Assembly (NCBI GenBank): GCA_030264375.1 | Contig: JASCQW010000098.1 | Span: 3,455,471-3,519,470 of the forward strand | DNA length: 64,000 nucleotides | Source of the DNA: Carcharhinus longimanus | Taxonomy: Eukaryota | Reading direction: 5' to 3' | Shown here: positions 500 to 19,690 of the stretch, in pieces | How the letters are laid out: every line of letters starts with the position of its first letter | How positions within the stretch are numbered: position 1 is the first letter of the stretch | Notes under the pieces: model-generated | Database searches by the model: none | Seen by the model: the letters and a program-made list of their open reading frames with translations, nothing else | Told to the model about the DNA's origin: nothing | Program-made: the position numbers and the translations under genes

Positions 500-860
500 T
501 AAAAGCAGAATACTGGATGCTGGAAAGCTGAAACAAAGACAGAAAGTTCTGGAAAAATTAAGCAGGTGGAATTTTACAGCCTCACTCGTCCTGAAACTGC
601 AAAATCCTGCCTGAGGTCAATGGACCTTTCCATTGTCCGCTCCTCATCTGCTCCATGGTGGGCGGGGCAGTAAAATTCCAGCCTGCAGGTCTGGGAGTGT
701 CTGTGGAGCAAGAAACAGAGTTAAGCTATCAAGTCTAATATGACCCTTCTTCAGATCCTAGGAACAACCATATGGACTCGAAACGTTAACTCTGTTTTTC
801 CCTCTCTCCACAGATACTACCAGACCCACCGAACTTATCCAGCATTTTTTGCTTTGTGTT
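500..860. mobile_element. Two inverted Penelope-like terminal fragments with a nested MITE (567-680)
   Basis: 690-745 and 770-855 are mutually inverted relatives of the 6155-6250 element. The MITE has 11-bp terminal inverted repeats TGGAATTTTAC / GTAAAATTCCA. Confidence 0.55.
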
Positions 861-879
861 CTCTCAAGGACGACCTATG

Positions 880-4877: not shown

Positions 4878-6211
4878 AACCTGACATTCAACTGATGAAG
4901 GGGCAAACACAGCATCTCCACATCATACAGAAAAGAGCCCACAGCATAATTTGAAGAACAGCAGAGGAGTGCTCCCTGATGTGGCGGCCAACATTTTTCT
5001 CCCAACTAACACACAAAGACAGATATATCTGGTCATTTATTTCACTGCTGTTTGTTGTTGCACCTTGACTGCCACTTTTTCCATTATACCATAGTGAATG
5101 GACCTCAAAAGCATTCAATAGACTATCAAGTGCTTTGGGCCAACCTGAGATCATGAAAGGCAGCTCCTCCAAAACAACAATAATTTCCTCAGTACAACTG
5201 TCTATCTTGTTATGCATAATAAATTGCATTGAACTGCCAAAAACAATTCTTTTTATTCCACAGGATGTGCGTGTCACTGGCTATTGCAGCATTAATTGCC
5301 CGTCCTTCATTGCCTCAGGAATGTGGTGAGCTACTTTCTTGAACTGCTGCAGTCTCTGTGTTGTAGGTACACCAACACTGCTGTTAGGGAGGGAATTCCC
5401 GGATTTTGACCCAGCAACAGTGAAGGAACAGCAATATACTCCCAAATCAAAAGGGTCTGGAGGGATACTTGAAGATGTTCCTAAGTGTCTGCTGCCCTTG
5501 TCCTTCCAGGCTGGTAGAGGTCAGGAGAGTTTGGAAGGTACTGTTGAAGGAACCTTGGTGAGTTACTGCAGCGTATGTTGCAGTTATATTTTGGGAGCAT
5601 TTGGTACCATATTCTCCGGCAATCTTTACTTCCCGTAACCTGAAAGTTGTGCTCTATGATCTGCTATCAAGGATCTGCATATTCAGGAATCTAACAACTA
5701 TCCCATTTGCTGTCATCCGCTCACTGGAGTTAATAATTTTATTCTACACCATCCAATTCTCTTTGAGATCATACACATCACCACCCGCAAACACACAGCA
5801 GAAGCTTAAAGATTAAAGCCACTTTTACATTGACTTTCAAATGGTGATATGAAGCATTAGAAGCAGCACTAAAATTACGGTACATTTATAAAAATACATT
5901 GGCAACATCTGTAATTAGCCACTGGGAAAAACAGCAACTGTTCTAGTTCAGTTAAATTAATCTGTTAATATGGTAAGATAAATTCAGCACATTCCACTGT
6001 CCATCAACTCGCCAACTTCAAGCTTAAAATCTCAATGAGACCTTCACAATCTGCTCTGGCCAACAATTTCCAAAAGAAATCTGCTGTCTTCTGATAAGTG
6101 CACCACTTCTTGACAGCACACTGCCAGGGGCCCGAGTTCAATTCCCAGACCCAAAAGAGAAAATGCTGGAAAATCTCAGCAGATCTGGCAGCATCCGTAA
6201 GGAGAGAAAAG

Positions 6212-6250
6212 AGCTGATGTTTCAAGTCCAGACGACCCCTTATCAAAGCT
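6212..6250 (-). ncRNA. Hammerhead motif with U3:A8 variant core, sense to PCCA intron 1
   Basis: AGCU-UUGAUAA-G-[GGGUC gucug GACUU]-GAAA-CA-UC-AGCU. Confidence 0.55.
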
Positions 6251-6419
6251 AAAAGGCAGAGAAAGTGGGAGATATTTATACTGCAAGCTGAGGAAATGAA
6301 GAATGAGTCATAGCAACAGAAACAGGGAAACCAGTTAATAGCTGTCCACAGAGAGAATGAAGGGTGTGAATGGTCAAATGGCAAATAAAAGGAAGATGTT
6401 GGGGGAAGAGTGGGAAAGA

Positions 6420-6730
6420 AATGCATAGAAAGCAGTGCAGAAAGAGGCCATTCAGCCCATCGAGTCTGCACCGACAGCAATTCCACCCAGGCTGTATCCC
6501 CACATATTCACCCGCTAATCCCTCTAACCTACGCATTCCAGGGCACTAAGGGACAATTTAGCTTGGCCAATCCACCTAACCCGCACATCTTTGGACTGTG
6601 GGAGGAAACCCACGCAGACACGGGGAGAACATGCAAACTCTGCACAGACAGCGACCTGAGCCAGGAATCGAACCCAGGTCCCTGGAGCTGTGAAACAACA
6701 GTGCCATCCACTATGCTACCGTGCCACCCC
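6420..6730 (-). mobile_element. HE1-like SINE, near full length
   Basis: tRNA-like head with B-box GGTTCGATTCC on the minus strand, conserved core, and LINE-derived tail. Confidence 0.85.
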
Positions 6731-6924
6731 AAAATGAAGAAAGACAATAAAGAAATAAAAGGTTGAGTACAGTTAAAAAATTAAATAAAATAGAATGAAA
6801 ACAAAAGGGTAGAGATGGGGTAGAACAAATCATCTAAAATTGTTGAATTCAACGTTGAGACCAGAAGGCTGTGAAGTGCCTGGCCGGAAGATAAGATGCT
6901 GCTCCTCCAGCTTGTGTTGAAATT

Positions 6925-7150
6925 CCTGGCTTGGGTCACTGTCTGTGCAGATCTGCTTGTTCTCCCTGTGTCTGTGTGGGTTTCCTCTGGTTCCGTCCCA
7001 CAGTCAAAAGACATGCTGATTAGTGCATTAGCTATGCTGAATTGTCCCTCAGTGTACCTGAACAGGCGCCGAAGTGTGGCAATTGGAGGATTTTTACAGT
7101 AACTTCATTGCAATGTGAATGTAAGTTACTTGTGACCCTAATAAATAAAC
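6925..7150 (+). mobile_element. HE1-related SINE, alternative-tail subfamily
   Basis: Same core, with a different tail ...CAGTAACTTCATTGCA...CTTGTGAC..AATAAA also seen at 12500-12810 and 13103-13360. Confidence 0.75.
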
Positions 7151-7992: not shown

Positions 7993-8295
7993 CATAGAAT
8001 CCCTGCAGTTCAGAAGGAGGCTATTTAGCCCATCAAATCTGCACTGACTATAATCCCAACCAAGCCCTATTCCTGTAACCCCATACATTTACCTTGCTAA
8101 TCCCCATGACGTGAGGGTCAATTTAGCATGGCCAATCCACCTAACCTGCACATCATTGGACTGTGAGAGGAAACAGAGCATCCGGAGGAAACCCACACAG
8201 ACACAGGGAGAATGTGCAAACTCCACACCGACAGTCATCCAAGCCAAGAATCGAACCTGAGTCCCTGGCGCTATGAGGCAGCAGTGCTAACCACT
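7993..8295 (-). mobile_element. HE1-like SINE
   Basis: Aligns by eye with 6420-6730. Confidence 0.85.
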
Positions 8296-9279
8296 AATCT
8301 CGGCTATATTTACAATTAAAGTGTTCAAAGAAAATGAGAAAAGACAAAAGCTCCTTTGAATTTTCTCACAAGGTTGGTCATAGCAATGTCCACAGAATCA
8401 GAACGCAACAGAAGCCATGAGTTAAATGTGTTTACCCCTTGAGACAAACTCAGTTTAAACCTTCCTGCACCTCTGTCAAGTTCAGGAATCTGATCATCAG
8501 CAGGTTCAAGAGGTCATGTATAGGTTTGCTTGGCAATAAAGCTCTTTCCATATTTAACATCAAACCATATCAGTGTCAGAGGGTTTCCCCTCAATTCTCT
8601 CTCCTTCCAAAAGCACTAACTATCCAGAGTGTCATCATTGCCATTTTTCAAATCTGAACATCAACAGCGAGTGCTGGCCAGCTATTTGAACATCGGGGGG
8701 TTGGAGAGAAGCTGAAGGCATTAAACCCAATTCTGTCCTGACTTTACGTTGATGTCTCATATCCATCCAATGATAGAAGTCCACTTCCATATGTTGGAAC
8801 AATGATCAAGAGACAGAACTCTTCCTGGAGACATTAGTATTCACTGGATGACCTCTGCTGCCTGAAGTACCTTGGCACTGAGAACAAAGCTGACATTTTC
8901 CAGGTCTCTATGGATCAGTCAAGACCTAAGAGTAATGTAGAGTCTTCAAGCTCATTTATAAGCAAATCACACTGGCAAACAGAAGCTGGCTGGAGGGAGG
9001 GCAGGGGAGGGGGATAGCGGCTGGCCCAGTTGGTTGGACAGCTTGGCTTTCATGCAAATCAGATTAACATCATCAGAACAGGGCTTGATACCCATTCCAA
9101 CTGAGGTAGACACAGGGTCTGCCTCCTTGCCCAACCATAACAAAATAAAGTTGTGGCATTGACCTTCAGACAGAGCAGTCAAAGAGAAAAATCATTCAGT
9201 TCTATCTGGACCCAGGCTAATGCTCTGGGGACAAGAAGCAAATTACAGGATTCGATAATGGATCTAACTATTCAATGAC

Positions 9280-9615
9280 TAGAATCATAGAAATCCTAAG
9301 TGCAGAAAGAGGCCATTTGGCCCATCGAGTCTGCACTGACCATAATCCCACCCAGGCCCCAGCCCCATATCCCTACCTATTCACCCACTAATCCCTCTAA
9401 CCTACACATCTCAGGGCTCTAAGGGGCAATTTTTAGCATGGCCAGTCAGTCTAACACGCACATCTTTAGATTGTGGGAGGAAACTGGAGCACCCAGAGGA
9501 AACCCACACAGGAACGAGGAGAATATCAAATCCACACAGTGACCCAAGCCAGGAATCGAATCCAAGTCCCTGGTGCTGTGAAGCAGCAGTGCTAACCACT
9601 GCGTTACCGTGCTAC
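9280..9615 (-). mobile_element. HE1-like SINE
   Basis: A-box-like GTGGTTAGCACTGCTGC and B-box GATTCGATTCC on the minus strand, with the same core and tail. Confidence 0.85.
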
Positions 9616-11607: not shown

Positions 11608-11920
11608 TCATAGAATCCTTACTTTGCAGAAGGCAACCATTTGGCCCATCAAGCTTGCACTGACAATAATCCCACACACGCCCTATCCCCTTAACCCCAT
11701 ATATTTACCCTGCTAATCCCTCTGACACTAAGGGACAATTTAAAATGGCCAATCAACCTAGCAAGAATACCTTTGGAATGTGGGAAGAAAGCTGAACACC
11801 CAGAGGGAACCCACGCAGGCACAGGGAGAACGTGCAAACTCCATGCTGACAGTGACCTGAGGCTGGAATTGAACCCAGTTCCCAGGCTGTGAGGCAGCTG
11901 TGCTAACCACTGTGCCGCCA
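11608..11920 (-). mobile_element. HE1-like SINE
   Basis: Aligns by eye with the other copies. Confidence 0.85.
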
Positions 11921-13830: not shown

Positions 13831-13869
13831 TTTGACCGGGCAAAGACGGGATGGACAACTGAGCAGATC

Positions 13870-14280
13870 ATCAGGTTAACCCTCTCACCAGCTCAACCCT
13901 TTCACCAGGTTAACACACTGACCAGCTCAACACCTCCACCTGGTCAACACCTTCCTCATGTCAACACAGAGACCAGTTCAACACACTGACTCGGTCAACA
14001 TGTTCACCAGGTTACCACACTGACTAGGTCAACACCTTCACCAGGATAACACACTGGCCAGGTCAGTACACTGACTTGGTCAACCCCTTCACCAGGTCAA
14101 CACACTGACCAGGACAACACATTCACCAGGTCAAACCCTTCACCAGGTCAACACACTCACCAGGACAACACATTCACCAGGTCAGCCCCTTCAGCAGGCC
14201 AACACTCACCAGGTTAAACGACTGACCAAGTCAACACCTTCACCAGTCAACACACTGACCAGGACAACACCTTCCTCCAG
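13870..14280. repeat. 17-bp minisatellite (ACCAGGTCAACACACTG / ACCAGGTCAACACCTTC), about 24 degenerate units
   Basis: Directly visible tandem units, with two variants roughly alternating. Confidence 0.9.
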
Positions 14281-17719: not shown

Positions 17720-19690
17720 AGGACATAAGTATGAAGAAAACTAGGTTAACAGATTGGAGGAAAACTAATTTTATGGGGAAGAGAACAGAAATTGGGAAAG
17801 TAAAATTGAAAACAATATTGGCAAACAGCATGATAGAACAATAATGGGAAACATTTAAAGTAATGTTCAGCAGAGTGCCAGAAAATTATATTCTGCTGAA
17901 AGGAAAGAGCAAATTAAGCATTGGTGAGACTCCATGGATAAATAAAGGCATAAGGGAACAACTGAGGTTAGCAGATAGCTATTGTAATTCCTATATTTAA
18001 TAAGGGGAACAGAACATGCCCCAGACTGCTTAACATCTGTGGTAGAAAAAATAATGGGATCCCTACTAAAGGAGAAAATAGAAAAAATATCTAGAAATAA
18101 AAAGTACAATAATGAATAGTCAATATGGATTTTCAAAGGGAAAACCTTGTTTGACCAACCTTATTAACTTATAAAGGTGGTAACAGAGAGAGCAGACAAT
18201 GCTAATGCAGTAGATATGATTTATTTAGGTTTTTATAAAGACTAACAAGCGAGGCCAGAATGGGCAGCACGGTGGCACAGTGGTTAGCACTGCTGCCTCA
18301 AAGCGCCAGGAACCTGGTATGATTCCAGCCTTGGGTGACTGTGTGGAGTTTTCCCCATGTCTCCGTGGGTTTCCTCTGGGTTCTCTGGTTCCTCCCACAG
18401 TCCAAAGATGTGCAGATTAGGTGCACTGGCCATGCTAAATTGTCCCTTAGTGTCCAAAGCTGTGTAGGTTAGGGATTACTGGGGTAAATGTGCGGAGTTA
18501 CGGGAATTGGGTGGGTGGGTGGTCATAAGTAAAATGTTCTTTCTGAGGGTCGGTGCAGCCTTAATGGACCGAATGGCCTCCTTTTGCACTGTAGGGATTC
18601 TAGAATTCTGTGAATGTAATCATGGAAAAAGTGATCAAATTGACTGCTGGTTGGCTTCAAGACAGAAAGCAGAGAGTAGGAATAAAAGGTAGTTATTCAA
18701 AGTGTCAGAAAGCTGGATGTATTGTTCCAGAAGGATCAGTGCTGGCACCAATGCTGTTCACAATATTACGTTAATGACTGGGCCTTTGGCATCATAACAA
18801 CCATTTTTATGTTTGCGTGTGGCTCCAGTTTTGAGAGGAATAGCCAATATCAAGGAGTACTGCACCAAATCACAAGAGGACTTTAAGAAACTTGCAAATT
18901 GGGCAAATAATTGGCAAAGAAGGTTCAACACTGATAAATGTGAAGTTATTATTTGGAAACTGGGAATCTAAGTGGAGTAGAAGAACAAAGGGATCTTGCA
19001 GCGTAAATACACAAATCATTAAAAGTTTCACCACAGGCTAGCAATGTCATAACAAAAAATATAACCAAATGCCATGCTTTATTTCCAGACAGATAGAACT
19101 GAAAAGTAGATGGTTATGCTAAACCTATAGTGAATGTTGGCAAGACCATCCTTGGAGTACTGCATGCTCACCATGCTATGAAAAGGATATGAAGACACTG
19201 ACAAGGGTACAGAGATGATTTCCAAGCATCATGCGGGAAATACTTGGGTATCAGGAAAAGATGAAGAGACTGGCTTTCATTACTTTGAGAAAAGAAGACA
19301 AAGGAGTGACCTAATAAATGTCTTTGAAATTGCAAAATATTTTACTGAGGTTGATACAAGGAAAACGTAAGAGCAAACGAGAGGCTATCAACATAACATC
19401 ATCACCAAGTCTACGGTGGGAATTCAACTGGGAATTCAAAAGAAATGTCTTTGTTAAAAGTGGTGGGTTGTGAAATTTGCTACCACAGTAGTTCAAGTGA
19501 GCAGTATAAAAATGTTTTAAGGGGAGGATAGACAAGCATATGAGGGAGAAGGGGATAGAGAGTAACTATGGTAGATTTAAATGAGGAGTAAAAGAGAGGA
19601 GGCTCGAGTGAAGCATAAAGACCAGCATATAGATTGGTTGGGCCAAATAGCCAGTTTCTTATATCCTATGTAATGTACTCCTATGTAATC
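17720..19690 (+). mobile_element. Old CR1-like LINE ORF2 remnant with an HE1 SINE inserted at 18262-18605
   Basis: Decayed CR1 motifs (HGF.KGK.CLTNL, VPEGSVL.PMLFTI, LVRP.LEYC) and a CR1 tail. The SINE is in plus orientation. Confidence 0.75.

What the first reader, a model, noticed from the sequence alone, without database searches (positions are those of the whole stretch)
6212..6250. Hammerhead variant with compensatory U3:A8 core
Seen: the core reads UUGAUAA instead of CUGANGA, so both C3 and G8 are changed, while stems I and II and GAAA...UC are kept. Known: positions 3 and 8 form a tertiary Watson-Crick pair in the active hammerhead, and U3:A8 restores it. A related copy at 720-754 (minus) has the canonical CUGAAGA with a similar stem II. 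Inference: this double change reflects selection for catalysis in a second shark repeat family, and searches using only the canonical core would miss it.
Basis: partly seen in the sequence, partly recalled or inferred. Interest (0 to 1): 0.72.

Follow-up and report, generated by a model that had tools for sequence, protein, structure and literature searches.

The report
Shark Penelope hammerhead with U3:A8 core
This is a worn-down, likely inactive copy of the tiny hammerhead self-cutting-RNA motif at the end of a shark jumping gene; its swapped U-A core pair is shared by the whole subfamily and likely kept the source element's ribozyme working, but the same swap is already published for other animals.

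Summary
The motif is real and lies on the minus strand (6250-6212). U3:A8 is the state of the subfamily, not of this copy alone: 39 of 42 copies picked without looking at the core have it and none has C3:G8. Genome-wide exact matches in one stem II context: U3:A8 734, C3:G8 285, C3:A8 184, U3:G8 41. The covariation rests on one change between two source elements; within the C3:G8 subfamily the two positions decay independently. The repeat is not a separate family. It is the 3' end of a Penelope-like retrotransposon (endonuclease tail at 6919-6830), whose sister subfamilies carry C3:G8. All six differences between sister source motifs keep the fold (0.1-0.35% of random draws), which supports selection on the source element. 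This copy has lost C11.1 and the palindromic G16.2 and is likely inert. U3-A8 minimal hammerheads in such elements were published in 2014 (PMC4209133), natural U3-A8 cores in 2011 (PMC3088659), and this scan noted the variant in several other genomes. Verdict: new shark member of a known kind; cleavage untested.

The parts
6212..6250 (-). Minimal type I hammerhead motif, subfamily A (U3:A8), decayed copy
6240..6246 (-). Core box positions 3-9, UUGAUAA here (subfamily UUGACAA); U3 = 6246, A8 = 6241
6224..6238 (-). Stem II (5 pairs, 5-nt loop); closing pair G10.1-U11.1 in this copy, G-C in the subfamily
6216..6223 (-). GAAA, positions 15.2-16.2 (CA here, palindromic CG in the subfamily), U16.1 and C17; predicted cut after 6216
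   Evidence: numbering after PMC4209133
6273..6280 (-). TATA-like box, first base 30 nt upstream of the first base of stem I (6250); promoter role inferred
6151..6421 (-). 3' untranslated end (pseudo-LTR) of the Penelope-like element; this copy ends at the shorter of two common 3' ends
6731..6925 (-). 5' piece of the same truncated element: last 29 codons of the GIY-YIG endonuclease (6919-6833), stop, start of the 3' UTR; about 100 nt of the UTR are missing
6425..6730 (-). Unrelated dispersed repeat inserted into the element (5 further matches in the window); SINE-like by recall
720..758 (-). Decayed hammerhead of the older subfamily C (C3:G8, A7; GAAA broken)
769..861 (+). Partial second copy facing away from the 720 copy (inverted arrangement), lacking the core box

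Best explanation
The motif is the minimal type I hammerhead in the 3' end of a 5'-truncated Penelope-like retrotransposon, inherited with U3:A8 from one source element in which the ribozyme likely still cut its own RNA, while this copy is likely inert. Shown: the anatomy, the subfamily-wide U3:A8, the link to an RT and GIY-YIG reading frame, and neutral decay of the copies. Inferred: the ancestor had C3-C7-G8; G8, in a CpG, changed to A and C3 to U restored the tertiary pair; selection acted only on the transposing source. Inferred from published cases: lacking helix III, the motif would cut after C17 only when two motifs pair through ACGU in a tandem transcript or when the element's own protein helps it fold.
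For: U3:A8 in 39 of 42 core-blind copies, C3:G8 in 0; U3 in all 18 copies found downstream in 17 of 29 loci picked by the endonuclease tail 450-780 nt upstream. 734/285/184/41 genome-wide, odds ratio 28. Three subfamilies with matched stem I changes: GCU/AGC, GCU/GGC, GUU/AAC, and position 7 C, C, A. Six differences A-B and six B-C all keep the descriptor; random sets of six do so in 0.1-0.35% of 40,000 draws. GIY-YIG match upstream (E 0.001, 19.8 bits, under the 22.6 cut-off); an upstream fragment hits 70 proteins, many with PF00078 and some with PF01541, the best six from sharks and rays. A same-strand second motif about 2.5 kb upstream in L303; 3' ends at two sites about 36 nt apart. Published: U3-A8 in Schistosoma Cercyon elements, dimer-only weak cleavage (PMC4209133); protein-assisted cleavage and 3-8 swap rescue in an Anolis element (PMC11167929).
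Against: No cleavage was tested. The covariation is one event, so the odds ratio counts copies, not independent changes. The pass rule was written after seeing the motifs, the B and C samples were collected with patterns that demand part of the core, three positions of the B source were set by hand from the genome counts, and C rests on 10 copies. Core positions are no better kept than flanks among copies (19 of 416 against 100 of 2489 mismatches). In the Anolis element, cleavage was not needed for insertion in vitro and no RNA reads ended at the cut site (PMC11167929). No tree was built, so the order C, B, A rests on divergence of biased samples (17.7%, 9-11%, 5.2%).
Confidence: 0.75

Rival explanations
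1. The ribozyme was already dispensable. The source of subfamily A picked up G8A through CpG decay and C3U by an ordinary transition, and both rode along with a successful element; the restored pair is coincidence.
For: One event only. G8 sits in a CpG in subfamily B and decays often (about 141 C3:A8 copies of B type); doubly changed B copies do arise by chance (11 of 30 examined, about 10 expected). Cleavage was not needed for insertion in vitro (PMC11167929); Naiad elements spread without the motif (PMC8557442).
Against: All other changes between sources fall at tolerated places, including a compensatory 2.2-1.2 change; a passing motif with U3:A8 arose in 0.008-0.025% of random draws from B. 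The same swap recurs in unrelated lineages (PMC4209133, PMC3088659).
Confidence: 0.12
2. The fold is kept, 3-8 pair included, but serves as a binding or positioning structure at the start of the element's RNA rather than as a cutter.
For: Copy 5' ends cluster at the first bases of stem I (10 of 29 and 15 of 37 callable ends at -4 to -1), not at the cut site, so uncut RNA seems to be the usual template. Minimal motifs cut poorly in vitro (PMC4209133).
Against: Keeping GAAA, U16.1, a non-G at 17 and the 3-8 pair is the signature of the active fold; an Anolis motif does cut with its protein (PMC11167929).
Confidence: 0.1
3. The source core was U3:G8 or C3:G8 and the A8 copies are all CpG decay after insertion.
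For: In subfamily B this decay is common.
Against: CpG decay is symmetric in B (about as many U7-G8 as C7-A8 copies), but in A there are 734 A8 matches against about 19 G8, only 3 of 14 examined with U7; position 8 is A in 40 of 41 aligned copies while true CpG sites mismatch at 33%.
Confidence: 0.02

Closest known systems
U3-A8 minimal hammerheads of Schistosoma mansoni Cercyon Penelope-like elements (Cervera and De la Pena 2014, PMC4209133; main text parts 1-2 of 4 and supplement parts 1-2 of 3 read)
   Same: Type I, no helix III, extra base between 9 and 10.1, G10.1-C11.1, palindromic 15.2-16.2, place in the element's end, mostly single truncated copies. Their S. mansoni(3) example has the same core letters as this copy. 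That paper built a U3-A8 descriptor and found about 1,300 hits.
   Different: Host is a cartilaginous fish (none among the species of its Fig. S3 text); stem II is 5 pairs; the carrier has a Neptune-type linker; C3:G8 sister subfamilies are present in the same genome.
Natural U3-A8 hammerhead cores (Perreault et al. 2011, PMC3088659; passages read)
   Same: Same covariation of the 3-8 pair, described there as seen in several natural examples and as already shown active in vitro.
   Different: Those are not described, in the passages read, as helix-III-less motifs of Penelope-like elements.
Hammerhead of the Anolis carolinensis Poseidon element PAc (PMC11167929; passages read)
   Same: Vertebrate Penelope-like element with a hammerhead in its pseudo-LTR and a two-ended tail; 3-8 pairing tested by single and double changes.
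   Different: C3:G8 core, Poseidon clade, and its reading frame starts inside stem II; no such start was established here.
Neptune-type EN+ Penelope-like elements (PMC8557442; passages read)
   Same: RT then C-terminal GIY-YIG, CX2-5CxxC linker, 5' truncation, partial tandems, inverted copies, 30-40 bp tail.
   Different: Clade not placed by a tree here; Nematis shares the linker.

Membership tests
Minimal hammerhead of Penelope-like elements | Core boxes with a paired 3-8 (C-G or U-A), GAAA and UH | tested here: met
Minimal hammerhead of Penelope-like elements | Stems I and II, with one unpaired base between 9 and 10.1 | tested here: met
   4-pair stem I, 5-pair stem II, extra base at 6239; stem I changes matched across subfamilies
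Minimal hammerhead of Penelope-like elements | G10.1-C11.1 and palindromic 15.2-16.2 in the subfamily | tested here: met
   majority C11.1 29 of 42, C15.2 31 of 42, G16.2 23 of 42, the rest mostly CpG transitions
Minimal hammerhead of Penelope-like elements | G10.1-C11.1 and palindromic 15.2-16.2 in this copy | tested here: not met
   U11.1 and A16.2; palindrome duplex +3.4 against -1.7 kcal/mol
Minimal hammerhead of Penelope-like elements | Lies in the terminal repeat downstream of the element's reading frame | tested here: met
   440-510 nt after the query start at the endonuclease tail in most loci
Minimal hammerhead of Penelope-like elements | Self-cleavage as a dimer or with protein help | not testable with these tools
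   needs an in vitro assay
EN+ Penelope-like element | Reverse transcriptase followed by C-terminal GIY-YIG | tested here: met
   GIY-YIG E 0.001 but under the Pfam cut-off; RT fragments gave no Pfam match on their own but hit RT and GIY-YIG proteins at E down to 1e-45
EN+ Penelope-like element | 5' truncation, partial tandem or inverted copies, 30-40 bp tail | tested here: met
   no full-length intact element was found among 8 long loci
Neptune clade | CX2-5CxxC linker between RT and endonuclease | tested here: met
   C-x4-C-x2-C in L171 and L174 and in homologue P0027
Neptune clade | RT groups with Neptune in a tree | not tested
   no named reference set in hand
Rfam hammerhead families | Covariance model match | tested here: not met
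   none among 10 matches at E up to 10

The most novel reading that the evidence does not exclude
The hammerhead begins exactly at the element's transcription start, 30 nt after a TATA box, so cleavage would remove the capped first 35 nt and silence the element's own RNA; the U3:A8 swap retuned this off-switch on the branch that became the youngest and, by intact motifs, the most numerous of the three shark subfamilies, giving a natural ancestor-descendant pair for testing what these ribozymes are for.
Probability: 0.15. Interest if true: 0.55.

Novelty: new member of a known kind. Interest (0 to 1): 0.22.

Why it matters
It confirms that the 3-8 pair is exchanged as a unit in a shark retrotransposon lineage, and that canonical-core searches would miss the larger class of intact motifs in this context (734 against 285). 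The role of these ribozymes is still open (PMC8557442, PMC11167929), and two sources that differ at only 6 of 39 places are a convenient pair to assay. The variant itself is not new, and this copy has no likely function.

Tried and rejected
Rfam scan: no hammerhead match. Folding alone is no evidence: z 0.68 for the 54-nt stretch, which prefers another fold. Pfam on four RT fragments and three of four fragments and a PDB sequence search gave nothing useful; the protein atlas gave no answer. A search for other hammerhead families with a different second base of stem II returned mostly variants of the same three subfamilies in the 100 of 538 rows listed, against 145 control matches, so no second independent U3:A8 lineage was found; this is not a proof of absence. 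A search for an intermediate source (U3:A8 with U17) gave 32 matches; of 30 examined 18 were A type, 11 B type, 1 unclear, about what decay predicts. No RNA holder listed; runs are contigs and cannot show ends or cleavage. The second laying was too short to list differences at 3 and 8. The alignment had 2 of 10 rows mis-set and was not used. The first profile had only 3 seeds and served for nothing further. No tRNA in the window. R-scape-style covariation was not run: copies descend from two or three sources, so it would count one event many times.

Full report
Observation. The motif is on the minus strand and spans 6250-6212 exactly as described: stem I, core UUGAUAA, one extra base, a 5-pair stem II, GAAA, CA, UC and stem I. 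The copy at 720-758 has CUGAAGA but GAUA in place of GAAA. Rfam has no hammerhead match in the window. The surrounding 54 nt do not fold better than shuffles, although stems I and II are the lowest-energy fold of the bare 39-mer (-7.6 kcal/mol). The evidence that the motif is real comes from the family, not from this copy.

Is U3:A8 private to the copy? No. The first search used the core and is biased, so I took samples blind to it: 29 other loci picked by the 66 nt downstream, 29 other loci picked by sequence about 500-700 nt upstream and 60 evenly spaced 10-kb stretches. Among copies from these that spanned the core and had at least 4 of 5 downstream marks of this subfamily, 39 of 42 were U3:A8, 1 C3:A8, 1 U3:G8, 1 gapped and 0 C3:G8 (copies with the core missing or masked were left out, and some loci gave two copies). 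The majority core is UUGACAA. In run X17, contigs at least 82% alike showed no unlisted change of the kinds that would give C3 or G8 at 5% or more, read from the tallies of change kinds (27 rows were not shown, names are coded, and the sample is biased to near copies).

Covariation. With stem II and GAAACGU fixed there are 1338 exact matches and 0 for the reversed pattern: U3:A8 734, C3:G8 285, C3:A8 184, U3:G8 41; 94 have other letters. The odds ratio is 28, but it counts copies. Sorting 30 loci of each of three classes by downstream flank: C3:G8 29 B and 1 unclear; C3:A8 23 B, 6 A, 1 unclear; U3:G8 15 B, 14 A, 1 unclear. In B the C7-G8 CpG decays both ways (13 C7-G8 and 13 U7-G8 among 29; 22 of 23 B-type A8 copies have C7), so the mismatched copies are decay after insertion. 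U3:A8 on a B background is seen in 11 of 30 examined, of 32 matches, against about 10 expected from independent changes. So positions 3 and 8 changed together once, between sources, and vary independently afterwards. Copies keep the core no better than the flank (4.6% against 4.0% at non-CpG sites; CpG sites 33%, the flank figure biased low by how half the loci were picked).

Selection on the sources. Clustering 160 copies on downstream sequence gave three groups: A (U3:A8, C17, stem I GCU/AGC), B (C3:G8, U17, GCU/GGC) and C (C3:G8, A7, GUU/AAC; C3 in 36 of 40 matches). Their divergences, 5.2%, 9-11% and 17.7%, suggest that A is youngest and U3:A8 derived; the samples are biased and no tree was built. 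A and B differ at 6 of 39 motif positions (3, 8, two loop bases, 17, 1.1), B and C at 6 (2.2 with 1.2, 7, 10.2, a loop base, 1.1). All keep the fold; random sets of six changes do so in 0.1-0.35% of 40,000 draws. The rule was written after seeing the motifs and B and C were collected with core-bearing patterns, so this is support, not proof. B-like cores also appear in the core-blind stretches.

This copy. It differs from the A majority at C7U, the extra base, one loop base, C11.1U and G16.2A. The last two are CpG transitions that weaken the stem II closing pair and remove the ACGU palindrome needed for the two-motif helix III. The copy is single, truncated and split by another repeat, so it is likely inert (inference).

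The carrier. Window 6925-6731 and 6421-6151 align at 83-87% with long genomic copies, with a 306-nt unrelated repeat between them. 6919-6833 encodes the last 29 residues of a reading frame that in longer copies holds a GIY-YIG stretch (E 0.001, under the Pfam cut-off) and a C-x4-C-x2-C linker. A fragment further upstream hits 70 proteins, many with PF00078 and some with PF01541, the best six from Rhincodon, Chiloscyllium, Mobula and Hypanus. Among 8 long loci I saw inverted partial copies and, in L303, a same-strand second motif about 2.5 kb upstream, but no intact full element. 3' ends fall at two sites about 36 nt apart, matching the tail described in PMC8557442. The 60 stretches plus the window gave 45 hits of the downstream profile in 594,434 bases, 3 of them A type outside the window, which puts A at roughly ten thousand copies, with wide error.

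How it likely works. In PMC4209133 a single minimal motif did not cut and dimers cut weakly. In PMC11167929 an Anolis motif cut only with the element's protein, single changes at 3 or 8 killed it, the double change partly rescued it, and cutting was not needed for insertion in vitro. The shark source most likely behaved alike. A TATA-like box starts 30 nt before the first base of stem I, and copy 5' ends cluster there (10 of 29 and 15 of 37 callable ends within -4 to -1), which fits a transcript that starts at the motif and is copied uncut. That the start lies there, and that cleavage would remove the cap, is inference; the TATA spacing rule is recalled.

What is known. PMC4209133 reports U3-A8 in Cercyon elements with about 1,300 hits; its alignment has an example with this copy's core letters and no cartilaginous fish. 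The machine-read text of its Fig. S4C appears to show U3-A8 in two Xenopus families (Xen_7, Xen_8), so this is probably not the first vertebrate case. PMC3088659 reported natural U3-A8 cores. I found no paper on shark elements with this core; 10.64898/2026.07.22.740005 (passages only) screened one chondrichthyan, and I did not see its supplements. PMC6155905 was read in passages; PMC7151607 only as a listing. Earlier notes of this scan report the variant in other genomes and the same elements elsewhere in this genome; none matched this stretch by sequence.

Verdict. Observation confirmed; interpretation partly supported. A real, subfamily-wide compensatory core in a shark Penelope-like element, one event, already known as a kind; this copy is a decayed remnant. 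Interest 0.22.

Noticed in passing
window 688-861: Two remnants of the older subfamily C lie back to back on opposite strands with about 15 nt between them, the usual inverted layout of these elements; both hammerheads are broken.
   Followed up: partly
L031-L060, L061-L150, L181-L300: Many copies begin within four bases of the start of stem I, 30 nt after a TATA-like box, often joined to an inverted piece of the downstream arm.
   Followed up: partly
window 6151-6211 (minus): Downstream of the motif is a pyrimidine run ending in CAG in the subfamily (CGG in this copy), like a 3' splice site, then a predicted hairpin; in L303 the upstream repeat joins the coding body near this CAG.
   Followed up: no
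window 6425-6730, 8005-8296, 9287-9615, 11625-11915, 18267-18496: An abundant repeat of about 300 nt, SINE-like by recall; one copy sits inside the Penelope-like element and so is younger than it.
   Followed up: partly
window 13855-14280: Tandem array with a 17-nt unit.
   Followed up: no
L269:7320 (minus): A copy with an A-type flank and U3:A8 but B-type letters at 17 and 1.1; 4 more such among 30 loci. Chance decay or a minor intermediate; not resolved.
   Followed up: partly
window 35988 (plus): A loose CUGAUGA...GAAA match without an evident stem II; taken as chance.
   Followed up: no
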